From contig CABZAV010000003.1 of assembly GCA_902523885.1 (NCBI GenBank), positions 11,527 through 75,526 of the forward strand: a stretch of DNA of 64,000 nucleotides. Reading direction: 5' to 3'. A model generated the notes under the pieces. The model was not told the origin of the DNA, did no database searches, and was given only the letters and a program-made list of their open reading frames with translations. This document shows positions 54,281 to 64,000 of this stretch, in pieces; the stretch's first letter is position 1; every line of letters begins with the position of its first letter. A program made the translations under genes and the position numbers. This DNA comes from an uncultured SAR86 cluster bacterium (lineage in GTDB: Bacteria; Pseudomonadota; Gammaproteobacteria; Magnimaribacterales; AG-339-G14).

Positions 54281-54745
54281 ATGAGAATCGCCCTAACTTT
54301 GATATTGATTTTTTGTCTGGCCTTACTTGGTACGGCATATTATATGGAATATGCCTTGGGCTTAGAGCCCTGCCCGATGTGCATCATACAAAGAATCGCA
54401 GTTGCTTTAGCTGGCTTAGCAGCTCTCATTGGACTGATTCACAAACAATATCCAAAAGTTTATTTTGGACTCACCGCAGTTTTTAGTGCAGGTGGCGCCG
54501 CCTCTGCCACTAGACATTTATATTTGCAATCTTTACCAGCAGATCAAGTCCCAACTTGTGGGCCAGATCTTGCTTACTTAATTGATAAATCTTATTTTAC
54601 TGATGCTTTAAGCATGCTTTTCATTGGCGATGGTAATTGTGCCGAAGTAATGTGGAGTCTTTTGGGTATTTCTATTCCAGGGTGGGTGCTTATTTGTTGT
54701 GGGCTAGTAATAATCAGCTCTACTGTTGCATACGTTCGTAGCTAA
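54281..54745 (+). CDS. dsbB: Disulfide bond formation protein DsbB
   Basis: Four-TM pattern with 'EPCPMCIIQR' and a second Cys pair ('PTCGPD ... GNCAEV'). Confidence 0.85.
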   Translation: MRIALTLILIFCLALLGTAYYMEYALGLEPCPMCIIQRIAVALAGLAALIGLIHKQYPKVYFGLTAVFSAGGAASATRHLYLQSLPADQVPTCGPDLAYLIDKSYFTDALSMLFIGDGNCAEVMWSLLGISIPGWVLICCGLVIISSTVAYVRS

Positions 54746-54998
54746 CGTTGCCAAAATAATTTTTATCCATTTTTAAAATTTCATTTTTTTTAAAAAATAT
54801 ACGTACATAATATTTTCTAACGACCGAAACTATAGTTAAAACTAAAGTTTGTACAATCGATATGTATAACGCATTGACAATACCCATGGTTAACATCAAA
54901 GCCAAAGTTGTATAAGACAAAAACCAGGCTATTGGCATGGCAATGGCCGTGTCGGTCATGGATTCTTTTAAAGTTTTTCTATCAATTTTTTTCATCAT
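54720..54998 (-). CDS. Hypothetical small membrane protein (92 aa, two predicted TM helices)
   Basis: The hydrophobic segments are 'AIAMPIAWFLSYTTLALMLTMGIV' and 'ALYISIVQTLVLTIVSVV'. It is divergent from the WYL regulator gene, and its 3' end overlaps dsbB by 26 nt. Confidence 0.4.
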   Translation of the reverse strand: MMKKIDRKTLKESMTDTAIAMPIAWFLSYTTLALMLTMGIVNALYISIVQTLVLTIVSVVRKYYVRIFFKKNEILKMDKNYFGNVSYERMQQ

Positions 54999-55032
54999 AC
55001 TTTTGAAAAGGACAAAATTATATTCTCTTGAT

Positions 55033-55049
55033 GCGACAAATTTTGTCGC
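55033..55049. promoter_or_regulatory. Palindromic operator candidate, copy 1 (GCGACAAAtTTTGTCGC)
   Basis: This is a perfect 17-bp palindrome 40 bp upstream of the WYL regulator start. It lies between a -35-like TTGATG (55028-55033) and a -10-like TATAAA (55050-55055). The same core recurs at 61532 and 62988. Confidence 0.5.
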
Positions 55050-55088
55050 TATAAATGATATAATTAATCAGTTAATCGGGGCCTAAGT

Positions 55089-56090
55089 ATGAGTAATCCA
55101 ACTTTAAGACAAATTTCCATGTTGGAATTAATTCCACGGGCTCCTCTTAAAACTTATTCGAGAGAGCTTAAAGAAAAGCTCAGCGAACGCGGCTACGAAG
55201 TTGATGAAAGGACTATTCAGCGGGATCTCGTTTCTTTAGAGAGAGTTTTGCCATTGATTTGTGACGATCGAGATAAACCTTATGGTTGGTCCTGGGCTGA
55301 GACAGGTTTAGGAATTCAAGCGCCTGCCATGGATCCTGTTGAAGCTTTGACGTTGTCACTAGCAGAACAATACCTTGAACCTATAATGCCGAATGCAAGT
55401 TTTAAAAGGATCGGATATTTTTTTAAACGAGCTAATAGCGTCTTGAAGGAAACGAGTCCCAGATTAATTAGTCGTTGGCGCGATCGCGTAAGGGTATTGC
55501 CCGAGATGTTACGTTTTAAGAATCCAATTCTTAATAAATCTGCCGAACAAGCTTTATACAAAGCAACCTTTGAAGGGCTACAAATTAAAGCCCTTTATCG
55601 AAAGCGTGGAGATAATTATTCAAGCTTGAGGCACATTCATCCTCTGGGATTGGTCATGAAAGGCAGCATTAATTACTTAATTTGCATGATGAATGAAGAC
55701 AAAGAGAATCCTCGTTACTTGCCCCTTCACCGCTTTGAACGAGTAGAAATTCTTGATGAAAAAATATGCGAACCGAAAGATTTTGATTTAGATGAATTTA
55801 CCCATGTCAATAACTTAAGTTTTGAATATTCTAAGAAACTTTATACTTTCAAAGCTTTGTTTGACTTTACCGCAGCGGCTCATTTAATGGAAACTCCTCT
55901 TAATGGAACCCAAAAAATTAAAAAGCAGCCAGATGGAAGGTTATTGGTTTCTGCCAGAATGACCGATACGTTGCAATTCGAACAATGGCTAAAAGGATTT
56001 GGTTCAGACGTTGAGATTTTAGCTCCAATAGAACTTAGAGCTAAGTTCAAAAAACTAGCAAAAGACCTGATTAAAAAATATGATGACTAA
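55089..56090 (+). CDS. wHTH-WYL-domain transcriptional regulator (YafY/BrxR/CapW/PafBC-like architecture)
   Basis: The N-terminal wHTH reads 'RQISMLELIP...YSRELKEKLSERGYEVDERTIQRDLVSLE'. The central WYL-type segment reads 'IHPLGLVMKGSINYLICMMNEDKENPRYLPLHRFERVEIL'. The C-terminal extension reads 'FEQWLKGFGSDVEILAPIELR'. 333 aa. Confidence 0.8.
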   Translation: MSNPTLRQISMLELIPRAPLKTYSRELKEKLSERGYEVDERTIQRDLVSLERVLPLICDDRDKPYGWSWAETGLGIQAPAMDPVEALTLSLAEQYLEPIMPNASFKRIGYFFKRANSVLKETSPRLISRWRDRVRVLPEMLRFKNPILNKSAEQALYKATFEGLQIKALYRKRGDNYSSLRHIHPLGLVMKGSINYLICMMNEDKENPRYLPLHRFERVEILDEKICEPKDFDLDEFTHVNNLSFEYSKKLYTFKALFDFTAAAHLMETPLNGTQKIKKQPDGRLLVSARMTDTLQFEQWLKGFGSDVEILAPIELRAKFKKLAKDLIKKYDD

Positions 56091-56097
56091 AGAATAG

Positions 56098-56994
56098 ATG
56101 AGTAATTTCTTAGACCTTTTCATTGTTTTATTATTACTAGGAATTTTTGCCTTTCTGATCTTCCTTTTCTTTAAATTTAGGACTTCGGACGAAAGTTCTT
56201 ATCAATCAAATCAAAATTTTGAGGAAAAAATTGATCTGCTTTCGAATGAAATTTCAGAAATAGAAAGCAAGCTGATTTCGGTAACGACTCCGATTAATGA
56301 ACTCAATAGATTTTTAGGTGGCAACGTTTCAGCTGGTCGTTTGGGCGAATGGAATCTTGAGTCTGTTGTAAAAGACATCATGCCTGATGGTAGTTACGAA
56401 TTTCAAAAGATTATAAATCCGGAAACAACTGAACAAGTAGATTGTGCCGTTTATAGTGCCGACGGACTAATCATTCCAATTGACTCAAAACTTTATTCGG
56501 GACAATTTAAAAATTATCAGGCTACTTCAAAAAAAATCGAACAAGAAAAAATATTGAAAGGCCTCAAAACTGCCATTCTTAAAGATGCCGACGACATTGC
56601 CCAGAAATACATTCGACAAAATACAACCTCGAATTATGCCATTCTTTATATTGCTTCAGAAAAAATGAACGATCTGGTTGATATGATCGAAGATCTACGC
56701 CAAGAATGTCTTTCAGAAAAAAATGTTTTGATTCAAGGACCGAATACCATGGCAGCTTTTTTAGATACAGTTAAAATAGGACATCATTACTTAAATTTAA
56801 ATGAAACTGCTAGTAAGGTCGCTGAAGTGGTCAGAAAAATAAACAAACAATTCAAAGCTTTTGATGAAAGCACTGTCAATGTCAAAAAAAGATTGGAAGC
56901 TTCGGTGAAAGAAGTAGACGAATTACAAACTCGAATTAATGTGCTTGGTAGAGAATTGGACAGAGGAGCTGAAGAAATGGGGAGCGAAAAATAA
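56098..56994 (+). CDS. RmuC-family (PD-(D/E)xK fold) protein, short form with N-terminal TM helix
   Basis: It has the TM helix 'LFIVLLLLGIFAFLIFLFF', a short coiled coil and the RmuC-like core 'AGRLGEWNLESVV...YEFQ...VDCAVYSADGLIIPIDSKL...YAILYIASE...VLIQGPNTMAAFL'. This parallels E. coli RmuC 'RGNWGE.QLE..L......PD.....IDAK....F..MF.P.E...........SPTTL'. It starts 7 nt after the regulator stop. Confidence 0.7.
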   Translation: MSNFLDLFIVLLLLGIFAFLIFLFFKFRTSDESSYQSNQNFEEKIDLLSNEISEIESKLISVTTPINELNRFLGGNVSAGRLGEWNLESVVKDIMPDGSYEFQKIINPETTEQVDCAVYSADGLIIPIDSKLYSGQFKNYQATSKKIEQEKILKGLKTAILKDADDIAQKYIRQNTTSNYAILYIASEKMNDLVDMIEDLRQECLSEKNVLIQGPNTMAAFLDTVKIGHHYLNLNETASKVAEVVRKINKQFKAFDESTVNVKKRLEASVKEVDELQTRINVLGRELDRGAEEMGSEK

Positions 56995-57017
56995 TCTATT
57001 TGATTTTAAAAGTAATT

Positions 57018-58394
57018 TTACGTAAAAAAATTATTTTGAAAATTTAGAACTGATTTATCAAGTTTAATATCTTTTTCAGTAATTTTAGTTTTTAAATATA
57101 AATTTTTCATCTTTTTGCATCTACTCAAGGCAACGTATACCTGGCCATGACTAAATGCTCTTTTTCCATCGCCAATATCTATTGCGCAAGAATTCAGTGT
57201 AAGCCCTTGTGATTTATGAATTGTAACTGCCCAACCTAATCTTATCGGCAATTGAGAATATTCTGCTATTTTCTCTGTAGTTATTTCTTTAGTTTTCTCA
57301 TCAAATTTGTACCTTTCAAGTGTCCATGACTCTCTTTCAAGTTCAAATTCATCACCATCGATTGAAATGTTAATTGAATTATCATTTAGTTTCTTAATTT
57401 CAGCTAAAGTTCCATTTACCCACCTTTTTTCGGTATCATTTTTAGTAATCATGACTTGAGTGCCTACCTTAAGCTCAAGTTCTGAAGGAGCAGGCAAAGA
57501 ACTTTCTTTGTTAAATTTTGTGGGATCACCTTCAGTTGAAGCCTTATAAATTTTTGAATCTGACTCAATTAATTCTATTTTATTTTTATTGATTTCATCC
57601 GCAGTTGCGGTTCTAGCACAGAGATACATTTCGACTGATTCTGGTGGATTAGGCTCATAACAATGTTTGTTTAAAATCTCTACGGTCTCTTTAACATTTT
57701 TTCCAACCCTAATATTGGAAAGAATCTTTAAAAAATTTTCGTCCTCATTCTGTCTATATGATCTCTTAAGCTCTATTGCAATTGGCTTAGAATTTGAAAG
57801 CGACTTAGCACCAAAGAAAAAATGAGAACTATACTTTGAATATATTATCTCTCTATTTTCTTCTGTAGTTACTGGTTCGAGTTGGAACAAATCTCCACAC
57901 AGAAGAAGAGAGGCTCCACCAAAAGGCTTTTTTGAATTTTTGTGAATTTTTAAACTTTCTGATATTGCGTCAAGAGTTGGAGCGTTAACCATAGAAATTT
58001 CATCGATTATTAGCAAATCTATATTCTCAATAATGAGCCCATTAATGTTATTCATCTTATGAACTTTTGGTAATGGCGAAAAATCTAATCTAAAAAGGGA
58101 GTGAATTGTTGTGGCATTAATATTCCACGCTGCCATGCCGGTTGGTGCAACAGTAACTATAGACTTGTCAATTTTATTTCTTACTAGATTAATTAAACTA
58201 GACTTTCCAGTACCGGCAGCTCCCATCAAAAGAATAACCTTTTGGTTTTCCTTAGAAATACTTTCAAGTTCAGATAATAGTTTTCTTGACTCTAAGGTTT
58301 CTTCAAAAGAATATTTGGAGGGATTTTTTTTATTTACCTTTTTATTATTTAATTCTTTTGTAAAACTTCCAAAGGTGTTACTCATTTTTTTCAC
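57018..58394 (-). CDS. Pif1-family SF1B DNA helicase
   Basis: The SF1B motifs are I 'LLMGAAGTGKSS', Ia 'VAPTGMAAWNI', II 'LLIIDEISMV', III 'LLLCGDLFQLEPV', IV 'LKRSYRQ', V 'VMITKND...WVNG' and VI 'AVTIHKSQGLT', then 'YVALSR'. Confidence 0.85.
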   Translation of the reverse strand: MKKMSNTFGSFTKELNNKKVNKKNPSKYSFEETLESRKLLSELESISKENQKVILLMGAAGTGKSSLINLVRNKIDKSIVTVAPTGMAAWNINATTIHSLFRLDFSPLPKVHKMNNINGLIIENIDLLIIDEISMVNAPTLDAISESLKIHKNSKKPFGGASLLLCGDLFQLEPVTTEENREIIYSKYSSHFFFGAKSLSNSKPIAIELKRSYRQNEDENFLKILSNIRVGKNVKETVEILNKHCYEPNPPESVEMYLCARTATADEINKNKIELIESDSKIYKASTEGDPTKFNKESSLPAPSELELKVGTQVMITKNDTEKRWVNGTLAEIKKLNDNSINISIDGDEFELERESWTLERYKFDEKTKEITTEKIAEYSQLPIRLGWAVTIHKSQGLTLNSCAIDIGDGKRAFSHGQVYVALSRCKKMKNLYLKTKITEKDIKLDKSVLNFQNNFFT

Positions 58395-58500
58395 TAATCA
58401 TAATTTTATATTGCGATTATTGTTATTCTTTTGCAAGTTTCAATACCTTTTTATTAAAGAGATAAATAGATTTCTCTATTAAAAGTTGTTATAAAAATTT

Positions 58501-61089
58501 ATGGAACTAATTTTTTTTTTACTAATAATAGTAATAGCTATTTTTGTTTTTAAAAATAACAATTCATTTTCTTTACCTCAAGAAAGTTATAAAAAAACAG
58601 AACCTGAATATATAAAAATAGAAAAAAATAATTTAATAAGATACAAAGAATTTTTTGATAATCTTTTTGAGTATTCGCTCACTCAAGATCAAAGGAAATC
58701 AATAGTTTGTGATGCCGATAGATTGCTTTCAGTTGCTTCTGCTGGATCAGGTAAAACTTCAACCCTCGTAGGTAAGTTTGCTTATCTTGTGAAATCAAAA
58801 AAGGCTAAAGAAAGTGAGATTCTTATTCTCTCTTTTAATAGGTCAGTAAAAGAGGAATTAGAAAAAAGATTGAAACAACTTGGACATAATGATGCAAAAA
58901 TAGAAACATTTCACTCTTTGGGCAGAAAGATTTTAAAATCTGCTAACGAGCCATTTCAAATAGATAAAATGGCTCTTGGAGATGGAGATTCGTTTTTAAC
59001 CTCTTTTCAAGTTAGAAGTCTTATATCAAAAGCAGAAATTAAAAGCCCTTCCATTAGATTCAAGATCGCAGAATTTACTGCTCTTACCCAATACCATTTG
59101 ATTGAAAACTTTGCAGAAGATCAAAATGAATATAATGAAGCGATATCAAGTTATCCATATAAAAGAAATAAATTTAAGTTTAATGATGAATTTAGGCCTT
59201 TGAAAATTCCAGCGCTTGATGGAAAAACTTGGGTGAGATCTCAACAAGAATTATTTATAGCAAATTTACTTGTTCTCAATGGAATAAATTTTAAATATGA
59301 AGCGCCTTTAAGTATTGGGGAGAATGATTCTATAAATCCAGATTTTTATTATCCCGATATAGATCTATGGCACGAGCATTATGCGATAGATGAGAGAGGA
59401 AAATCACCTTTTGGTGAAAAATATGAAGAAAATCATAAGTTGAAAGAAGAATTTTATAAAAGGTCGTCTATAGAAGTATTTTCAACAAATTTAAAGGATT
59501 ATTCAAGTGGAGAAATTGAGCATAAAATCTTTTCTGAATTAGAATCAAATGGATTGCAGAAAAATCCTCTATCTTTATTAGATATTGAATTTAAGTTGAG
59601 TGAAATATACACAGATTCCACTTATAGTTTAATTGCAAATTTAATAGGACTTCACAAAGAAAATAATTCATCAATATCCGAAACACTTTCTAAATTAGAC
59701 TCTTTGCATGACCAAACAAGAGCACAAAAGTTTAAAGAGATTTTTTTTCCTTTGCTTGATGCCTACCAAGAAATATTAGCAAGTAATAGAACTATTGATT
59801 TTTCAGACATGATGACAAAAGCTAATAAAATTATAGAGGGTAATAACAAAAATAATTCAGATCAGACTTCTATTCAAAACTTTAAGTATATTTTGGTAGA
59901 TGAATTTCAAGATATTTCAAAATCTAGGGAAAAGTTAATTAAAAGTATTTTATCATGTAATAAAGAGTCAAAATTGTTTGGTGTAGGTGATGATTGGCAA
60001 TCAATTTATAGATTCACTGGATCTGATATTTCTATAATGACCGATTTTAAAAATCGGTTTAATTTTAAAAAAGATAAAGTCGAAGGAGATTCAAATCAAC
60101 CTCTCTTTGAAATAAAAGAAAGGATTGAGGTAAAGAATATATCTGAAACGCATAGATTTCCAGATTCTATCGTAAAACTTTCTTCGGAGTTTATTCAAAA
60201 AAATCCAAATCAGCTTAAAAAAGAAATAAAAACAGATAAGAAAGGAGGAAGAATTTTTCTATGCAAAATAGAAAAATATAAAACTCAGGATTTAAAGAAT
60301 ATCCTTGATCATATTTCATCGGGAAAAAAAGTTTTTTTGCTCGCAAGAAAAAATCAAGACATAGATAATATTGATTTTGAAGAATTGAAACTTTATAGAC
60401 CTGACTTAGATATAAAATTTTCATCCATTCACAGAGTAAAAGGATCTGAGCGAGATGTAATAATAATTTTAGGAATGGACGGCGGTATGTTTGGCTTCCC
60501 TAGAATTTTTTCTGAAGATCCTTTAATTAGCATATATTTGCCTAAAGAAGACGAATTCAGAGATGCTGAGGAGAGGAGAGTTCTATACGTAGCCATGACA
60601 AGAGGCAGGGAAGACATTTTTTTAGTTTCTGCGCCTGGAAAAGATTATGTATTTTATAACGAACCTTCGGTATTTTATGATGAAATCAAAAGAATCTGTG
60701 AACAAGAGTTTCTGCCTGAAAATAATAAAATTTTTAATGAGTTAGATTTTACAGAGAGTATTCCTTGTAAAGTTTGTGCTAATAAAAAAATTAATCAGAA
60801 AATGAGAATAAAAACTGTCCGTAATACTAAAAAAAATATTGAAAGTGGAATTTTTCCTGGGGTTTTTATGGGTTGTTCAGGATTTTCAAAGAATATAAAA
60901 AGTCCGACTTTCTGCAATCATTCAGAAAGGAAAGCAATATGTATAAATTGTTATTCAAAAGATAAAAAAAATTTATCAGAACTTGAGGTAATTGAAGAAG
61001 ACGAAAATGGAAGAAAAAAATATTTTGTTTTTTGTAGTAATTGTAATTTTAAGAAAGATTATTTTTATTATCAGAAAATTTCAGAATAA
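58501..61089 (+). CDS. UvrD/HelD-like SF1A helicase with N-terminal TM helix, inserted Vsr/PD-(D/E)xK-like module and C-terminal zinc ribbons
   Basis: The TM helix is 'MELIFFLLIIVIAIFVF'. The helicase motifs are 'VASAGSGKTST', 'ETFHSLG', 'ILVDEFQDIS', 'GVGDDWQSIYRFTGSD', 'ETHRF', 'SSIHRVKGSERDVIIILG' and 'EERRVLYVAMTRGRE'. The insertion is 'SQQELFIANLLVLNGINFKYEAPL......INPDFYYPDIDLWHEHYAID' (nt 59230-59400). The C-terminus carries 'CKVC...FMGCSGFSKNIKSPTFCNH' and 'CINC...FCSNCNF' (nt 60766-61060). Confidence 0.8.
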   Translation: MELIFFLLIIVIAIFVFKNNNSFSLPQESYKKTEPEYIKIEKNNLIRYKEFFDNLFEYSLTQDQRKSIVCDADRLLSVASAGSGKTSTLVGKFAYLVKSKKAKESEILILSFNRSVKEELEKRLKQLGHNDAKIETFHSLGRKILKSANEPFQIDKMALGDGDSFLTSFQVRSLISKAEIKSPSIRFKIAEFTALTQYHLIENFAEDQNEYNEAISSYPYKRNKFKFNDEFRPLKIPALDGKTWVRSQQELFIANLLVLNGINFKYEAPLSIGENDSINPDFYYPDIDLWHEHYAIDERGKSPFGEKYEENHKLKEEFYKRSSIEVFSTNLKDYSSGEIEHKIFSELESNGLQKNPLSLLDIEFKLSEIYTDSTYSLIANLIGLHKENNSSISETLSKLDSLHDQTRAQKFKEIFFPLLDAYQEILASNRTIDFSDMMTKANKIIEGNNKNNSDQTSIQNFKYILVDEFQDISKSREKLIKSILSCNKESKLFGVGDDWQSIYRFTGSDISIMTDFKNRFNFKKDKVEGDSNQPLFEIKERIEVKNISETHRFPDSIVKLSSEFIQKNPNQLKKEIKTDKKGGRIFLCKIEKYKTQDLKNILDHISSGKKVFLLARKNQDIDNIDFEELKLYRPDLDIKFSSIHRVKGSERDVIIILGMDGGMFGFPRIFSEDPLISIYLPKEDEFRDAEERRVLYVAMTRGREDIFLVSAPGKDYVFYNEPSVFYDEIKRICEQEFLPENNKIFNELDFTESIPCKVCANKKINQKMRIKTVRNTKKNIESGIFPGVFMGCSGFSKNIKSPTFCNHSERKAICINCYSKDKKNLSELEVIEEDENGRKKYFVFCSNCNFKKDYFYYQKISE

Positions 61090-61427
61090 TCAGCAAAAAA
61101 ACTTAAAATGAAATTAGTAAAAGGCAATCCAAGAAATATAAGACTCAAAAAACCTATTAACAATATCAAAATGCTTTGTAACGTATCCGCGTACATCATA
61201 ACGAGAGTCATTATTGCTGAGCTCGCTAGTATTTGAGGAACAATGGAGTTCATTAAAGAAAAATCCATTTGTTCTGGAATATTTATATTATGACTTGTTT
61301 CAGTTAATGTTGGCTTAACACTATTACTGTATAGCTTTTGTAGAGGAAAAGTAGCTGCATAAGCAGTAGATGCGGTTATGAGCTTTAAACCCGTTTTTAA
61401 AAACTTTCTTCTTTCTGCGTCTATCAT
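61071..61427 (-). CDS. Hypothetical small membrane protein with twin-arginine (Tat) signal-like N-terminus
   Basis: 'MIDAERRKFLKTGLKLITASTAYAA' fits S/T-RRxFLK plus an h-region. Hydrophobic segments lie in the C-terminal half. It overlaps the helicase 3' end convergently by 19 nt. Confidence 0.4.
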   Translation of the reverse strand: MIDAERRKFLKTGLKLITASTAYAATFPLQKLYSNSVKPTLTETSHNINIPEQMDFSLMNSIVPQILASSAIMTLVMMYADTLQSILILLIGFLSLIFLGLPFTNFILSFFADYSEIF

Positions 61428-61531
61428 TTTTTAAGCTTTCTAAGGTTATTATCTTTAAGGCCCTTTAGTAAGGAGTATAAAACTAAAAGGCCTTTAGGAG
61501 AAAATATGAAAAACAACTTTAAAATAAAGAT

Positions 61532-61548
61532 GCGACAAATATTGTCGG
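61532..61548. promoter_or_regulatory. Palindromic operator candidate, copy 2 (GCGACAAataTTGTCGG)
   Basis: It has 6-bp perfect arms CGACAA/TTGTCG with a 3-nt centre. It lies in the gap between the 61554 gene stop and the 61427 gene start, and shares 'gatgcgacaaat' with copy 1. Confidence 0.45.
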
Positions 61549-61553
61549 ATTAA

Positions 61554-61757
61554 TTATTCAAATTTAGCCTCATAGAGTTTTGAATAGCCCATATAACTTC
61601 GTCTTTGTCTTCCAGTGAGGCGTCCATATTCGTCGAAAAAGTAGACCATTGCACCAGTAGGGCCTGTCATTTGAATGTGGAGCTCCCACGTACCATTTTC
61701 AAATTTTATAATGCTCTTGCTGTGATCGATGTCAATTTTTTCTAATAATTCTTTCAT
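61554..61757 (-). CDS. Hypothetical protein (67 aa from MKELLEK...)
   Basis: The track ORF is 61554-61769. The ATG at 61757-61755 forms an ATGA overlap with the TGA stop (61756-61754) of the upstream OGFr-like gene, which suggests translational coupling. I recognise no family. Confidence 0.35.
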   Translation of the reverse strand: MKELLEKIDIDHSKSIIKFENGTWELHIQMTGPTGAMVYFFDEYGRLTGRQRRSYMGYSKLYEAKFE

Positions 61758-62197
61758 GCTTCTTCCCAAAATTTCATTGTGGTTGGATTCAAAATAGTCG
61801 GATCTTTGACTAGTCTTAAAATGGCTTTGTAAAACTCATCTGCAGCTTCATCAGAAACTAAAAGTCTCAAAGATTCAATTACCCGAGTAATGCGCAACTG
61901 ATTGTGATCGTACCCCTTTTGCCAAGCATCGTTTCTACTCAAAAAAGATAGAAACCAAGCAGCCGATTTCTCAAGATTATTTATTACTTTTGGATTGTTT
62001 TTAAGTTTGTCTATTAATGCTTGATTGTTCAAAAATAGTTTATTAAAAGTTGCTTGACTTGGTTTGTTCGTAGGAAAAACTAACTGAACAAAATCATGAG
62101 TGCCTTCAATTTCATTATCTGAATATGCCCAGATTTCTTTTAAGAAACGTCCTTTAAAATCTGGACCTTGATTGGTCAAAAACTTTTCAAAATCCAT
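61754..62197 (-). CDS. Opioid-growth-factor-receptor (OGFr) conserved-region-like protein
   Basis: 'EIEGTHDFVQLVFPTNKPSQ' resembles the 'HDYIQWLFPL.E.S' core of bacterial OGFr_N-like proteins; this is from memory and no HMM was run. The start is set at MDFEKF... (62197), 4 nt after the upstream gene stop, because the longer track ORF would overlap that gene. Confidence 0.5.
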   Translation of the reverse strand: MDFEKFLTNQGPDFKGRFLKEIWAYSDNEIEGTHDFVQLVFPTNKPSQATFNKLFLNNQALIDKLKNNPKVINNLEKSAAWFLSFLSRNDAWQKGYDHNQLRITRVIESLRLLVSDEAADEFYKAILRLVKDPTILNPTTMKFWEEA

Positions 62198-62201
62198 GTC
62201 T

Positions 62202-62876
62202 TTATTTAAGTGAGCCAAGCAGTAGATCATTTTCAAGTTGCCTTTTTTGACACAATTCGACGAAGTCATGCATTGCTTGTTGAAATTCGTTACTTTCGAA
62301 GGTAAGAAGGTTGAAGCCTTCAAAATACAAATAGTATGGACTTTCAGGAGGAATGAATATGGATAGTTTTTTTACTAAAGATTCGTCTTCTTTTATTAAA
62401 TAAGCCCCTTTCTTAATATGAACCAAAAAAATATCAAATAACAAGTCATCGCTTTTTGAATGTTTTTGATAAAAATCCTGGTCTATCATGTTTTCAAATT
62501 TACTTACAAGGCGTATTTCTGAATCAACCCAATATGGTGGTTCGTCGTCAACCTGCATGACCACTCTTGTTTCATTAAGGAGATCTTCTCTTTCTACTAT
62601 GCCTTCGTGTTTTCGGAAACCCGCGGTAAAGATCTGAAAAAAAACTTCAGGTTGATCGCAATTGGGCATACTGAAAGATAAGACTAATTTATTCCAATAG
62701 GAGTGTTGATCGCTAATAGAAATGTATCCGTAGTCACCATCATTCGATTCAGATATTTCCCAGGTGGTACCAATTTCATTCAAGTAAAGGTCGGAATGAT
62801 AAATTTTATAAGTTTGGTCTTGAGCGGACATCGTTATGCCGCTCAAGAAAAATAATAAATAAAAGTTAATCTTCAT
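62202..62876 (-). CDS. Hypothetical secreted protein (224 aa)
   Basis: It has the signal peptide 'MKINFYLLFFLSGITMSAQ'. I recognise no family. It is the first gene of a three-gene minus-strand cluster. Confidence 0.45.
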   Translation of the reverse strand: MKINFYLLFFLSGITMSAQDQTYKIYHSDLYLNEIGTTWEISESNDGDYGYISISDQHSYWNKLVLSFSMPNCDQPEVFFQIFTAGFRKHEGIVEREDLLNETRVVMQVDDEPPYWVDSEIRLVSKFENMIDQDFYQKHSKSDDLLFDIFLVHIKKGAYLIKEDESLVKKLSIFIPPESPYYLYFEGFNLLTFESNEFQQAMHDFVELCQKRQLENDLLLGSLK

Positions 62877-62987
62877 TGAATAATTTCGACCAAAGTATAG
62901 TTCCGTCTAAATCAATTTCTATTTCTTCGTTGGACATATTTCTTAGACACATCAAATTCTCGTGAGTTCTAAGGTTAAGGTTTCAAA

Positions 62988-63004
62988 ACGACAAGCTTTG
63001 TCGT
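62988..63004. promoter_or_regulatory. Palindromic operator candidate, copy 3 (ACGACAAgctTTGTCGT)
   Basis: It has 7-bp perfect arms with a 3-nt centre. It lies in the divergent intergenic region between the 62876(-) and 63038(+) genes, 8 nt upstream of a TATAAA (63013-63018). Confidence 0.45.
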
Positions 63005-63037
63005 AAGAGCGTTATAAAGTTTGCCTCTGGAGAAAAG

Positions 63038-63340
63038 ATGAATAATCCTGAAATAGACAAAAAATTAAGTGGCGCGATAGATGAAGTGATTTCAATTTAT
63101 TTAGAATCAACCGATGTTGAGGTTATCGATCTTTTTAGGAGTTTAACGAGGCATGTCATATCATTAAATTACCAATATGCCTCTAATTATCGCTCTGCGA
63201 CTGCCATGATTGCACAATGTCTCAATGACGTTATGTGCGACCTACAAGAGCAAAAGATCTTTAATGACGAGTTCAAAGACAACTTAAAGAAAGGCAAAGT
63301 TACATCTGTTTTGGAAGATCATTTAAAAAAGAAGCACTAA
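63038..63340 (+). CDS. Hypothetical protein (100 aa)
   Basis: ORF with the SD-like 'ggagaaaag' just upstream of the ATG. I recognise no family. Confidence 0.4.
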   Translation: MNNPEIDKKLSGAIDEVISIYLESTDVEVIDLFRSLTRHVISLNYQYASNYRSATAMIAQCLNDVMCDLQEQKIFNDEFKDNLKKGKVTSVLEDHLKKKH

Positions 63341-63344
63341 AAAT

Positions 63345-63743
63345 TTGAAAAAGATAAAAGCAAAAAAATTTTTTCCTTACCCTTCTCAAGAAAGTTTCGA
63401 TGATGCCTTAAATATTATTGCTGAAATAAGAGCAGAAAATTACTTTTGGACAAAAAAAATTTGGTATGTTGAACAGAAAATTAAAAAATTTGCTAACGAC
63501 GATATCAATCGTGAATTTTATGTTCGGTTAAGGGATAAGTTAGACGAAAAAATTTGTAATAGTCATACTATTTATATTGATTTGTTAATGGATATTACAA
63601 AAGTAACTGGCATAAAAAAGAAAATTACAAAAAAATTTGTTCAAATGACCGATGAGCTAATTTTGCAAGACAGAAGATCTAATGATTATTTTAATATTAA
63701 AAATCAACCTTTTCCTTTTGAAGATGAATTAAACTATCGTTAA
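63345..63743 (+). CDS. Hypothetical protein (132 aa, TTG start per track)
   Basis: The ORF starts 4 nt after the previous stop. The first in-frame ATG is far downstream, so a non-ATG start is required if the gene is real. A strong terminator follows it. Confidence 0.35.
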   Translation: MKKIKAKKFFPYPSQESFDDALNIIAEIRAENYFWTKKIWYVEQKIKKFANDDINREFYVRLRDKLDEKICNSHTIYIDLLMDITKVTGIKKKITKKFVQMTDELILQDRRSNDYFNIKNQPFPFEDELNYR

Positions 63744-63751
63744 GCAATGCT

Positions 63752-63783
63752 AAAAAAAAGGGAGCCTGAGCTCCCTTTTTTAT
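63752..63783. terminator. Bidirectional rho-independent terminator
   Basis: The sequence 'aaaaaaaaGGGAGCctgaGCTCCCttttttatttt' has stem arms at 63760-63765 and 63770-63775. An A-run precedes it and a T-run follows, and it sits between convergent genes. Confidence 0.75.
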
Positions 63784-63796
63784 TTTAAGCAAAAGT

Positions 63797-64000
63797 TTAT
63801 TCCCAAGCCTTAACAGGATTGACGATTCCTCTTCTGACTATCGAACGATTTCTTCTGACCGCAGTTTGAAATTCTTTGAAATCTGGATTTTTCATATCCA
63901 ATAAATCTAAAGTTTCCATGAGTGAAGCCACATTCTGGCCGCCAATAAAAGCAAAGTGAGAAAAATCAGTTCCGGCAACAACTCTTTCAAGTCCATAAGA
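63797..64000 (-). CDS. C-terminal fragment of an unidentified protein (5' part outside window; possibly amidohydrolase-like)
   Basis: My minus-strand translation, in frame to the window edge, reads ...SYGLERVVAGTDFSHFAFIGGQNVASLMETLDLLDMKNPDFKEFQTAVRRNRSIVRRGIVNPVKAWE*. The stop codon is at 63799-63797. The family assignment is weak. Confidence 0.4.
   Translation of the reverse strand, partial: SYGLERVVAGTDFSHFAFIGGQNVASLMETLDLLDMKNPDFKEFQTAVRRNRSIVRRGIVNPVKAWE

What the first reader, a model, noticed from the sequence alone, without database searches (positions are those of the whole stretch)
55089..56994. WYL regulator and a membrane-anchored RmuC-like nuclease-fold protein form a two-gene operon
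The two ORFs are on the same strand and separated by 7 nt, with no promoter or terminator space between them. WYL-domain regulators are known to gate anti-phage systems (BrxR for BREX, CapW for CBASS). They are also known to gate LexA-independent DNA-damage regulons (PafBC in actinobacteria, DriD in Caulobacter). The cargo here is neither a known defence core nor a classical repair operon. It is a 298-aa RmuC-family protein with an N-terminal TM helix and an apparent D...D-x-K site ('VDCAV...PIDSKL'). From memory, E. coli rmuC/yigN has been reported as LexA-regulated, which makes a WYL-substituted damage-response reading plausible. The neighbouring helicases and the island context make a defence reading equally plausible. 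I do not recognise either pairing as a described system.
Basis: partly seen in the sequence, partly recalled or inferred. Interest (0 to 1): 0.75.

Follow-up and report, generated by a model that had tools for sequence, protein, structure and literature searches.

The report
DriD-type regulator driving membrane-anchored RmuC nuclease
A DNA-damage-sensing type of regulator and a short membrane-anchored DNA-cutting enzyme form a tight two-gene unit at the head of a swappable defence-gene island in an uncultured marine bacterium (SAR86); it is a new variant of pairings already described elsewhere, not a new kind of system.

Summary
ORF1 (55089-56090) is a wHTH-WYL-WCX regulator. ORF2 (56098-56994) is a 298-aa RmuC-family PD-(D/E)xK protein with one N-terminal TM helix. 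The two are 7 nt apart.

- The pairing is not undescribed. Shield (TM-RmuC ShdA, repressed by an upstream BrxR-like WYL gene) was published in 2023.
- The regulator is closest to DriD, the ssDNA-activated damage-response activator, not to BrxR or CapW.
- I found its candidate operator de novo. CGACA-N5-TGTCG occurs 3 times in the window (0.04 expected) and upstream of the WYL gene or its short leader ORFs in all 17 distinct WYL-carrying loci. It is absent from WYL-less SAR86 loci, apart from one intragenic match.
- This sequence equals the published DriD/DdaA box. It sits 10-11 bp from a -10 hexamer with no -35, which is the DriD activator architecture.
- The short RmuC is near-universal in SAR86, usually without WYL and vertically inherited. 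WYL-linked alleles are divergent and shuffled between lineages. They head a variable island after dsbB that carries methylase, DISARM-like or helicase-nuclease cargo.

Most likely this is an ssDNA-induced operon expressing a membrane-tethered nuclease. Whether it serves defence or repair is unresolved.

The parts
54720..54998 (-). DUF7220 small membrane protein (92 aa), transcribed divergently from the WYL gene and sharing its box
   Evidence: Pfam PF23858 3.6e-9; phrog_4276 1.3e-8; hydrophobic segments. A homologue lies next to WYL in 8 other distinct loci: L001, L013, L015, L037, L038, L044, L074, L086.
55017..55022 (-). -10 hexamer TATAAT (read on the minus strand), 11 nt from box 1, pointing at DUF7220
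   Evidence: Read from the sequence; geometry scan.
55033..55049 (.). Box 1: perfect palindrome GCGACAAA-T-TTTGTCGC (core CGAC-N7-GTCG at 55034-55048). Candidate DriD-type operator of a bidirectional promoter.
   Evidence: The same box lies upstream of the WYL gene or its leader ORFs in all WYL loci. It matches the published DriD/DdaA consensus.
55059..55064 (+). -10 hexamer TATAAT, 10 nt after box 1. Predicted promoter of the WYL-rmuC operon. No conserved -35.
55089..56090 (+). wHTH-WYL-WCX transcription regulator (333 aa), DriD/DdaA-like
   Evidence: Pfam WYL + WCX. Best PDB sequence hits are DriD, 1.6e-9. AF2 model pLDDT 71.5. Foldseek ranking: DriD 4.9e-14, PafBC 1.9e-11, CapW 6e-8, BrxR 5e-7.
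56091..56097 (+). 7-nt junction (agaatag) between the WYL stop codon and the rmuC start codon
56098..56994 (+). Short RmuC-family PD-(D/E)xK protein (298 aa): TM helix at about residues 5-27, a short helical linker, then the nuclease core with E84, D115, D129-x-K131, E188
   Evidence: Pfam RmuC 5.2e-40; motif alignments with ShdA and E. coli RmuC; conservation; hydropathy.
57018..58394 (-). Pif1/RecD-like SF1B helicase (458 aa), convergent on rmuC. Island cargo.
   Evidence: Pfam PIF1 7.4e-29. No homologue in any other locus fetched.
58501..61089 (+). UvrD/helicase-IV-like helicase (862 aa) with an N-terminal TM helix. Island cargo.
   Evidence: Pfam UvrD-helicase 2.6e-42; NCBIfam helicase IV 2.9e-91, below cutoff; PADLOC GajB-type hits; TM. 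No homologue in the other loci.
61071..61427 (-). o118: 118-aa membrane protein with an RRKFLK twin-arginine-like N-terminus, downstream of box 2
   Evidence: Homologues at 38-43% identity lie in the islands of L039, L044 and L045, which also carry a second box.
61533..61547 (.). Box 2: CGACAAATATTGTCG, with TAAAGT (minus strand) 11 nt to its left, pointing at o118
   Evidence: the repeat finder independently paired it with box 1 (36 nt, 75% identity).
62989..63003 (.). Box 3: CGACAAGCTTTGTCG, in the divergent intergenic region between o224 (62202-62876, minus) and o100 (63038-63340, plus). TAnnnT hexamers lie 11 nt away on both sides.

Best explanation
ORF1 is a DriD/DdaA-type wHTH-WYL-WCX regulator. 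As a dimer it recognises the palindrome CGACA-N5-TGTCG.

In the window this box occurs three times, always inside the low-GC island that starts right after dsbB. Each box replaces the -35 element and lies 10-11 bp from a -10 hexamer.

By analogy with DriD (inferred), binding of single-stranded DNA to the WYL domain switches the regulator on. Such ssDNA is made during DNA damage, or during replication or processing of invading DNA. The regulator then recruits RNA polymerase to these -35-less promoters.

Box 1 would fire in both directions. Leftward it expresses the small membrane protein DUF7220. Rightward it expresses the regulator's own gene together with the translationally coupled rmuC. Boxes 2 and 3 would switch on o118 and the o224 and o100 operons.

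The RmuC product is an intact PD-(D/E)xK nuclease. It is held at the inner membrane by one N-terminal helix, with the nuclease domain in the cytoplasm (K26 and R28 follow the helix). When induced, it most likely cuts or degrades DNA near the membrane.

I favour an anti-foreign-DNA role analogous to BrxR-controlled Shield/ShdA, because of where the gene sits. WYL-linked rmuC alleles head a swappable island. In relatives, rmuC is followed in the same operon by DNA methylases and by DISARM-like or other restriction-like genes.

Shown: the domains, the motif, the operon junction, box conservation and geometry, and the island structure. Inferred: the ssDNA ligand, activation rather than repression, nuclease activity, and the biological role.
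For: Regulator identity:
- Pfam WYL + WCX.
- The best PDB sequence and profile hits are DriD.
- Foldseek gives full-length alignments to DriD (4.9e-14), ahead of PafBC, CapW and BrxR.
- The DriD ssDNA contacts R178, Y192 and R204 align with R181, Y196 and R209, which are invariant in the SAR86 family.
- Invariant R41 and R45 in 'RTIQRD' have the same spacing as the DriD base-reading residues R37 and R41.

Operator:
- CGAC-N7-GTCG occurs 3 times in the window against 0.04 expected.
- It occurs at least once, upstream of the WYL gene or its short leader ORFs, in all 17 distinct WYL loci. It occurs in none of the roughly 50 WYL-less SAR86 loci apart from one intragenic hit.
- The half-sites are invariant while the flanks are only 52% identical.
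- The sequence is identical to the published DriD/DdaA search motif and to the crystallised site core CGACAGTTACTGTCG.

Geometry:
- TAnnnT lies at a gap of 10-11 nt on 36 of 56 box sides, against 2.2% per position in the background.
- No -35 is conserved.
- DriD-activated promoters have exactly this layout.

RmuC:
- Pfam 5e-40.
- The catalytic residues are invariant.
- The TM helix is clear.

Island and defence context:
- PolA identity of 95-98% coexists with RmuC identity of only 64-66% in WYL-less sister genomes.
- W-type RmuCs form separate, long-branched clades that mix host lineages.
- The cargo is methylase plus MZB plus helicase, Z1/DUF4420/HATPase_c_3, RNase_H_2-helicase, or UvrD-PDDEXK.

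Precedents:
- BrxR-Shield.
- The DdaA regulon includes CRISPR.
Against: - No experiment exists for any SAR86 protein.
- The RmuC structure model was unusable (pLDDT 52).
- The same short RmuC is present, vertically inherited and without WYL, in about 50 of 62 SAR86 species. The enzyme as such therefore looks like a housekeeping gene. The WYL-linked allele appears to be the only rmuC at the locus, so it may simply do the housekeeping job.
- In Caulobacter the DriD box in the bidirectional driD promoter activates the divergent operon, not driD itself. By analogy, box 1 might drive only DUF7220.
- WYL and RmuC identities are only moderately correlated (rho 0.45-0.52). There are clear mismatches: L037 is 81/59 and L074 is 78/41.
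- In the window the cargo is two helicases of no recognised defence system.
- An inducible operon that carries a methylase (as in relatives) is awkward for a restriction-type system unless internal promoters exist.
Confidence: 0.5

Rival explanations
1. Accessory DNA-damage-response module, not defence. The DriD-type regulator puts rmuC under ssDNA control, together with a small membrane protein (DUF7220) that could halt division. This would be the functional equivalent of LexA control of rmuC and sulA in E. coli, or of DriD control of didA and bapE in Caulobacter. The neighbouring defence-like genes are merely co-resident in a recombination hot spot.
For: - The regulator is DriD-like in sequence, fold, box and promoter layout.
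- E. coli rmuC (yigN) is a LexA-regulon member.
- DriD and DdaA each activate a small membrane division inhibitor, and DriD also activates a nuclease.
- The short RmuC is a lineage-wide, vertically inherited gene.
- In the window the operon stops after rmuC.
Against: - Only about 18% of SAR86 species carry the regulator, which is odd for a core stress response.
- All three exact boxes in 64 kb lie inside the island, with none at polA or other core genes.
- In relatives the same operon continues into methylases and restriction-like genes.
- WYL-linked rmuC alleles are unusually diverse and move between lineages.
Confidence: 0.3
2. Repressor mode, as in CapW and BrxR. The regulator sits on the palindrome, which overlaps the core promoter, and blocks RNA polymerase. 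ssDNA releases it. The physiological outcome (induction on damage or infection) is the same, but the mechanism is the opposite.
For: - The box overlaps the -35 and spacer region. In the window it lies between TTGATG and TATAAA at a 16-nt spacing.
- WYL regulators associated with defence systems that have been studied are repressors.
- The first DriD paper suggested negative autoregulation at the driD promoter.
Against: - The TTGATG -35 is not conserved in other loci, whereas the -10 at 10-11 nt is.
- The protein ranks closer to the activators DriD and PafBC than to CapW and BrxR.
- It carries 'RYLPLHR', which resembles DriD 'RSWRLDR', rather than the repressor-family RWHVR motif.
- DriD-activated promoters have this exact overlap.
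Confidence: 0.25
3. Incidental co-transcription. A regulator cassette (DUF7220 + WYL) that belongs to the island inserted between dsbB and the resident rmuC. rmuC is read through from the new promoter, but it is not a functional target, and its divergence reflects linkage to a recombination hot spot.
For: - In WYL-less genomes rmuC overlaps dsbB and was evidently co-transcribed with it.
- WYL can be followed by a methylase instead of RmuC.
- L003 has a window-type RmuC (86% identity) with no WYL.
- WYL and RmuC co-divergence is only moderate.
Against: - The tight junction (overlap to 13 nt) is kept in most of the 15 lineages with WYL upstream of RmuC, across 55-88% WYL identity.
- WYL-linked RmuCs do not nest within their hosts' D-type clades, so they are not simply the resident gene.
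- Island variants that lack the short RmuC carry another RmuC-family gene inside the cargo operon.
Confidence: 0.15

Closest known systems
Shield anti-phage system (ShdA) with an upstream BrxR-like WYL regulator, Pseudomonas (PMC10270631)
   Same: - The core protein has an N-terminal TM helix and a C-terminal RmuC (PF02646) domain.
- It is found in defence islands.
- A WYL regulator lies immediately upstream and controls it.
- ShdA homologues are also embedded in DISARM-like operons, as RmuC is here in L001, L015 and L040.
   Different: - ShdA is about 523 aa, with a coiled coil of roughly 270 aa. It is 45% identical to E. coli RmuC (3e-107).
- The window protein is 298 aa and only 21% identical to ShdA II.
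- No ShdB-E partners are present.
- The regulator here is DriD-like, not BrxR-like.
- Shield has been reported only in Pseudomonas.
DriD (Caulobacter crescentus) and DdaA (Acinetobacter): ssDNA-activated WYL activators of a non-SOS DNA damage response
   Same: - wHTH-3HB-WYL-WCX architecture and closest fold.
- Identical recognition sequence, CGAC-N7-GTCG, with an AT-rich centre.
- The box overlaps the missing -35 at a fixed distance from the -10.
- The box lies in the regulator's own bidirectional promoter, opposite a small gene of unknown function.
- Regulon members include a nuclease and small membrane proteins.
   Different: - Only 18-22% identity.
- It is carried on a variable island in a minority of species, not as a core regulator.
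- The boxes seen so far lie only within the island, not at recA, ssb or uvrA (only 64 kb was examined).
- It is co-transcribed with rmuC, which is absent from the known DriD and DdaA regulons. Acinetobacter lacks rmuC altogether.
BrxR/CapW family of WYL repressors heading defence islands
   Same: A WYL regulator at the upstream edge of variable defence cargo, with an inverted repeat in its own promoter and a second site elsewhere in the island (BrxR R-BOX1 and R-BOX2). CapW also senses ssDNA.
   Different: - Weaker structural match (6e-8 to 5e-7, against 5e-14 for DriD).
- Lacks the RWHVR motif.
- Different operator.
- The promoter layout points to activation.
E. coli RmuC (YigN), a LexA-regulated 'recombination-limiting' protein
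   Same: Same Pfam family. A hydrophobic N-terminus, and the same GxxGE...(P)D...D-x-K...GP(N/T)T motifs. Both are placed under a DNA-damage-type regulator.
   Different: 475 aa against 298 aa. 22% identity over 217 aa. Regulated by LexA, not by a WYL protein.

Membership tests
RmuC family (Pfam PF02646; PD-(D/E)xK superfamily) | Significant full-length match to the RmuC profile | tested here: met
   5.2e-40, 137.8 bits against a cutoff of 26, profile positions 18-276 of 291.
RmuC family (Pfam PF02646; PD-(D/E)xK superfamily) | Catalytic E...(P)D...(D/E)-x-K signature conserved | tested here: met
   E84, D115 and D129-S-K131 align to the E. coli RmuC and ShdA motifs. They are invariant in 71 of 71 SAR86 homologues. 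Position 115 is D or E in more distant short forms.
RmuC family (Pfam PF02646; PD-(D/E)xK superfamily) | Restriction-endonuclease-like fold | tested here: inconclusive
   The AF2 model has pLDDT 52 and pTM 0.28, too poor for a fold search. No RmuC homologue was found in the PDB by sequence.
Shield (ShdA) | N-terminal TM helix plus C-terminal RmuC domain | tested here: met
   The definition is taken from PMC10270631.
Shield (ShdA) | Located in a defence island (the criterion used to exclude housekeeping RmuC) | tested here: inconclusive
   The window gene heads a variable low-GC island, and relatives carry R-M- or DISARM-like cargo. However, the window's own cargo is two helicases of no recognised system. 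The same protein family is also a lineage-wide gene.
Shield (ShdA) | Sequence membership of the ShdA clade (about 520 aa, long coiled coil, close to gammaproteobacterial RmuC) | tested here: not met
   21% identity, E 5e-4 to ShdA II, whereas ShdA II against E. coli RmuC is 45%, 3e-107. Length is 298 aa against about 523 aa.
Shield (ShdA) | Anti-phage activity and DNA degradation | not testable with these tools
   Requires experiment.
DriD/DdaA-type WYL activators | wHTH - three-helix bundle - WYL - WCX architecture | tested here: met
   Pfam WYL + WCX. The model shows a wHTH at residues 4-69, helices at 83-133, the WYL beta-domain at 164-225 and the WCX at 251-332. Full-length Foldseek alignments to 8tp8, 4.9e-14.
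DriD/DdaA-type WYL activators | CGAC-N7-GTCG box in its own promoter | tested here: met
   Window 55034-55048, and all 17 distinct WYL-carrying loci. The consensus is taken from PMC10853764 and PMC13010146.
DriD/DdaA-type WYL activators | Box overlaps the -35 position of a -35-less promoter, at a fixed distance from the -10 | tested here: met
   Sharp peak of TAnnnT at a gap of 10-11 nt (36 of 56 sides). No conserved -35. The criterion is taken from PMC13004042. The promoters are predicted, not mapped.
DriD/DdaA-type WYL activators | ssDNA-binding residues of the WYL domain | tested here: inconclusive
   R181, Y196 and R209 correspond to DriD R178, Y192 and R204 and are invariant. K202 and W206 are not conserved.
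DriD/DdaA-type WYL activators | ssDNA-dependent DNA binding and transcription activation; control of core repair genes | not testable with these tools
   No boxes lie outside the island in the 64-kb window. The rest of the genome is not available.
BrxR/CapW WYL repressors | Closest structural and sequence relatives; conserved RWHVR motif | tested here: not met
   These rank below DriD and PafBC in Foldseek and are absent from the PDB sequence hits at E<=1. The corresponding stretch reads PRYLPLHR. The motif is taken from PMC11662680.

The most novel reading that the evidence does not exclude
In SAR86, a DriD-type ssDNA-activated activator, rather than a BrxR/CapW-type repressor, is the master switch of a swappable defence island. 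A short membrane-tethered RmuC is its near-constant first cargo gene. This RmuC would work as a common nuclease partner for interchangeable methylase, DISARM-like or helicase modules. That would be an 'inducible immunity' design linking the non-SOS damage response directly to anti-phage defence in one of the most abundant marine bacterial lineages.
Probability: 0.2. Interest if true: 0.65.

Novelty: new variant of a known kind. Interest (0 to 1): 0.45.

Why it matters
WYL regulators are currently split into two groups: activators of DNA-damage regulons (DriD, PafBC, DdaA) and repressors of defence systems (BrxR, CapW). This locus has the DNA specificity and promoter layout of the first group but the genomic setting of the second. 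It could show how damage sensing is wired to immunity.

It also defines a compact RmuC form of about 295 aa that is near-universal in SAR86. It exists both as a stable core allele and as fast-moving island alleles. That offers a natural contrast for working out what RmuC, still poorly understood after 25 years, actually does.

Finally, the dsbB-rmuC junction is identified as a defence-island hot spot in an abundant, uncultured marine lineage.

Tried and rejected
- **RmuC structure.** AF2 with a 17-sequence alignment gave pLDDT 52, so I ran no fold search on it.
- **PDB sequence search for RmuC.** No relative found.
- **PADLOC.** Only a weak RT-associated RmuC hit (8e-5). The 2023 library appears to hold no Shield model.
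- **Genome scan.** A closer 8-sequence alignment worked but reached few non-SAR86 genomes: 9 Planctomycetota loci at about 25% identity, none with WYL. The census therefore says little about other phyla.
- **Plasmid tblastn.** Only ordinary rmuC genes at 23-26% identity.
- **DriD box, early misreading.** I first read the 20-bp didA site in the 2022 DriD paper as unrelated to my palindrome. Later papers give the consensus CGAC-N7-GTCG, so I withdrew that rejection.
- **Simple -35/-10 scanner.** It did not call the WYL promoter.
- **One-mismatch boxes elsewhere in the window.** They are mostly intragenic and lack the CGACA/TGTCG half-sites, so I do not count them.
- **Rigid co-transfer of WYL and RmuC.** Rejected, because co-divergence is only moderate and has clear mismatches.
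- **DUF7220 homologues.** The word-indexed search reached only SAR86 relatives, so a wider DUF7220-WYL association could not be tested.
- **Integration-site markers.** No tRNA and no Rfam family in the island.
- **Acinetobacter as a precedent for WYL-controlled rmuC.** Rejected, because that genus has no rmuC.
Full report
**1. Observation**

Two + strand ORFs occupy 55089-56090 (333 aa) and 56098-56994 (298 aa). The first ends with TAA at 56088-56090. Seven bases (agaatag) follow, and the second begins with ATG at 56098. The consensus scan called no terminator between or directly after them, and a convergent helicase gene ends 23 nt downstream.

ORF1 matches Pfam WYL (5e-10) and WCX (3.4e-15). 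ORF2 matches Pfam RmuC at 5.2e-40 over nearly the whole profile. ORF2 has one strongly hydrophobic N-terminal segment, with a 19-residue Kyte-Doolittle mean of 3.29.

In pairwise alignments it falls on 'PDVIV...IDAK' of E. coli RmuC and of ShdA.

**2. What the RmuC-like protein is**

It belongs to the RmuC family but to a compact branch.

- E. coli RmuC is 475 aa. The Shield protein ShdA is about 523 aa (sequence recovered from S2 Fig of PMC10270631). Those two are 45% identical (3e-107).
- The window protein is 21-22% identical to either and lacks their long coiled coil.
- An exhaustive search of 1.8 billion representatives found only 14 clusters at 1e-30 or better. Full-length relatives of about 290-330 aa form a small clade. 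Everything else is ordinary 400-500-aa RmuC at 25-30% identity.
- G80, E84, D129, K131, E188 and G214-P215 are invariant across this short clade, and position 115 is D or E.
- The AF2 model was too poor to use (pLDDT 52), and the PDB holds no sequence relative. The fold is therefore inferred from the HMM and the motifs only.

**3. Where it sits: a census**

The closest homologues come from marine metagenomes and SAR86 genomes. A scan of one genome per species returned 62 SAR86-lineage species with this protein, plus 9 Planctomycetota loci at about 25% identity. The 62 fall into three contexts:

- rmuC directly after, or overlapping, dsbB with no WYL gene: about 23 species
- a different neighbourhood with no WYL gene: about 27 species
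- a WYL gene upstream of rmuC: 11 species

The short TM-RmuC is thus a near-universal SAR86 gene, and the WYL gene is an add-on in about 18% of species.

A neighbour-joining tree shows that the WYL-less, dsbB-linked proteins form one clade whose branching follows PolA similarity, so they look vertically inherited. The WYL-linked proteins form three or four separate, long-branched clades that mix host lineages.

Identities make the same point:

| Locus | PolA identity to window | RmuC identity to window | WYL gene |
|---|---|---|---|
| L004 | 98% | 66% | absent |
| L018 | 95% | 64% | absent |
| L003 | 80% | 86% | absent |
| L074 | 87% | 41% | present (78%) |

Mean pairwise identity is 62% among WYL-linked RmuCs, against 82% and 78% in the other two classes. 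All 71 sequences keep the catalytic residues and the TM anchor.

**4. The island**

In WYL-less genomes rmuC is followed by a conserved set: 232- and 238-aa proteins, SNase, DUF2237, SelO and ADH. In WYL-carrying genomes that set is displaced by variable genes. In L074 the core set reappears after homologues of the window's o224 and o132. The window's island therefore runs from just after dsbB (54746) to about the window's end. Its GC is 0.318, against 0.362 for the rest.

The cargo differs from genome to genome:

- N6- or C5-methylase plus MZB/DUF1998 plus a large helicase (DISARM-like): L001, L015, L040, L010
- Dcm plus HATPase_c_3 plus Z1 plus DUF4420: L042, L009, L013
- RNase_H_2 plus an SF1 helicase: L041, L044, L047
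- N6-methylase plus UvrD-PD-(D/E)xK: L045
- ABC ATPase plus DUF87 plus PLD: L008
- EcoRII-N/HNH plus SNF2 plus a 348-aa RmuC plus Dcm: L086

A methylase follows rmuC on the same strand in six loci. In the window the cargo is a Pif1/RecD-like helicase and a TM-anchored UvrD/helicase-IV-like helicase, with no homologues in the other loci. No tRNA, integrase signal or Rfam family marks the island.

**5. What the WYL protein is**

- Sequence and profile searches of the PDB hit only DriD of Caulobacter at significant E-values (1.6e-9).
- The AF2 model (pLDDT 71.5, good within domains) aligns over its full length to DriD-ssDNA-DNA complexes (4.9e-14). PafBC (1.9e-11), CapW (6e-8) and BrxR (5e-7) follow.
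- The DriD ssDNA contacts R178, Y192 and R204 correspond to R181, Y196 and R209, which are invariant in the SAR86 family.
- The stretch 'PRYLPLHR' resembles DriD 'PRSWRLDR' rather than the RWHVR motif of the CapW/BrxR repressors.

**6. The operator**

Upstream of ORF1 lies a perfect palindrome, GCGACAAA-T-TTTGTCGC (55033-55049).

- The core CGAC-N7-GTCG occurs three times in the window, against 0.04 expected. The sites are 55034 (between DUF7220 and WYL), 61533 (upstream of o118) and 62989 (between o224 and o100).
- Across related loci it occurs upstream of the WYL gene or its short leader ORFs in all 17 distinct WYL-carrying loci. It occurs in none of the WYL-less SAR86 loci, except one intragenic match.
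- Six WYL loci have further copies 3-9 kb downstream, three of them in islands that also hold an o118 homologue.
- In an alignment of eight sites the half-sites CGACA/TGTCG are invariant, while the mean column identity is 52%.

I derived this motif from the sequence alone. It then proved identical to the published DriD recognition sequence: consensus ATACGAC(N7)GTCGTAT, crystallised core CGACAGTTACTGTCG, AT-rich centre (PMC10853764). It is also the CGACNNNNNNNGTCG pattern used to find DdaA sites in Acinetobacter (PMC13010146). DriD reads the G/C bases with R37 and R41. The SAR86 family has invariant R41 and R45 at the same spacing in 'RTIQRD'. That motif is common to many HTH regulators, so it is only consistent evidence.

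**7. Promoter geometry**

Cryo-EM work shows that DriD-activated promoters lack a -35 hexamer. The DriD site overlaps the -35 position at a constant distance from the -10 (PMC13004042).

Across the 28 exact boxes in all loci held (23 after excluding the WYL-less L073, the Planctomycetota L080 and three of the downstream copies), a TAnnnT hexamer lies 10 or 11 nt from the box on 36 of 56 sides, against 1-6 at each neighbouring spacing. The background frequency is 2.2% per position. No -35 is conserved.

- Box 1 has TATAAT on both sides: 55059-55064 towards WYL-rmuC, and 55022-55017 towards DUF7220.
- Box 2 points at o118.
- Box 3 has hexamers towards both o100 and o224.

This is the activator layout. 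A repressor reading (the box also lies between a TTGATG and a TATAAA in the window) cannot be excluded.

One caveat comes from Caulobacter. There, the box shared by driD and a divergent small gene activates the divergent operon but not driD.

**8. How it most likely works**

Shown:
- a tightly coupled regulator-nuclease gene pair
- a conserved DriD-type box with DriD-type spacing at three island promoters
- an intact, membrane-anchored PD-(D/E)xK protein
- placement at the head of a swappable island with restriction-like cargo

Inferred:
- ssDNA from damage or from invading DNA activates the regulator
- the regulator recruits RNA polymerase to the box-dependent promoters
- RmuC is induced and cuts DNA near the membrane

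I favour a Shield-like, anti-foreign-DNA role for three reasons. First, the WYL-linked alleles are diverse and mobile. Second, the operon runs on into methylases and restriction-like genes in relatives. Third, island variants that lack the short RmuC carry another RmuC-family gene within the cargo operon.

The main rival is an accessory damage-response module. It is supported by the regulator's identity, by LexA control of rmuC in E. coli (PMC6590174), and by the lineage-wide, apparently housekeeping nature of the short RmuC. The two readings are not fully exclusive. CapW shows that defence regulators also sense ssDNA, and the DdaA regulon includes a CRISPR locus.

**9. Comparison with what is known, and novelty**

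Shield (2023) is a TM-RmuC defence protein with an upstream WYL repressor and with relatives inside DISARM-like operons.

This locus nevertheless fails the membership test for the ShdA clade, on length, coiled coil and 21% identity. Its regulator belongs to a different WYL subgroup. It is therefore best filed as a new variant of known kinds: a DriD-type regulator in a defence-island setting, driving a compact RmuC.

It is moderately interesting to specialists in WYL regulation, RmuC and marine microbial genomics. It is not a new category.

Noticed in passing
window 54281-64000 and loci L001-L087: The junction after dsbB (order polA-dsbB-rmuC) is a recombination hot spot in SAR86. Genomes with 95-98% identical PolA carry either no island or islands with entirely different cargo. 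rmuC alleles at the junction are exchanged between lineages.
   Followed up: yes
window 57018-58394 (-) and 58501-61089 (+): A divergently transcribed pair: a Pif1/RecD-like helicase and an 862-aa UvrD/helicase-IV-like helicase with an N-terminal TM helix and a Cys-rich C-terminus. GC is very low (0.28-0.32). Neither has a homologue in any other locus fetched, and the pair matches no recognised defence system (only generic GajB-type helicase hits).
   Followed up: partly
window 54720-54998 (-): The small membrane protein DUF7220 shares the bidirectional box-1 promoter with the WYL gene and recurs next to WYL in 8 other distinct loci. DriD and DdaA each activate a small membrane division inhibitor (DidA, AciT), so DUF7220 might play a comparable role. 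It also matches a phage protein family of unknown function (phrog_4276).
   Followed up: partly
window 61071-61427 (-), 61533-61547; L039, L044, L045: o118 is a 118-aa protein with a twin-arginine-like N-terminus and C-terminal TM segments. It lies downstream of the second DriD-type box. Homologues at 38-43% identity sit in three other islands that also carry a second box, so it seems a conserved member of the regulon at the far side of the cargo.
   Followed up: partly
window 55030-55065 and 61529-61564: Boxes 1 and 2 are embedded in a 36-nt direct repeat (75% identity, including a shared GATG before the box). The repeat brackets WYL, rmuC, both helicases and o118. It is probably two copies of one promoter design, but a role in cassette exchange was not excluded.
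   Followed up: no
L009 15496-16566 (-), L013 15437-16519 (-), L086 2381-3427: Island variants in which WYL is not followed by the short RmuC instead carry a longer RmuC-family gene (348-360 aa), too divergent for a tblastn hit. It sits inside the cargo operon next to Dcm with Z1/DUF4420/HATPase_c_3, or with SNF2 and EcoRII-N/HNH. RmuC-family genes and C5-methylases co-occur repeatedly.
   Followed up: partly
window 61754-62323 (-), 62202-62876 (-), 63038-63743 (+): Genes of unknown function flank box 3: a protein with a weak OGFr_N match, a 224-aa protein with a signal-peptide-like N-terminus, and two small ORFs. The o71, o224 and o132 homologues recur at the right edge of the islands in L013 and L074.
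   Followed up: no
L008 7597-7997; L009 7802-8008: In some lineages one or two small ORFs (64-68 aa) lie between the box and the WYL gene, so the box-dependent operon begins with an extra small protein there.
   Followed up: no
L077-L085: Short RmuC relatives at about 25% identity in Planctomycetota genomes matched the same peptide patterns. None has a WYL gene or a box nearby.
   Followed up: no
L087: One long-read metagenomic contig carries the same island as L086, but with the SNF2, RmuC, Dcm and WYL genes broken into fragments. This is either decay of the island or uncorrected assembly errors.
   Followed up: no
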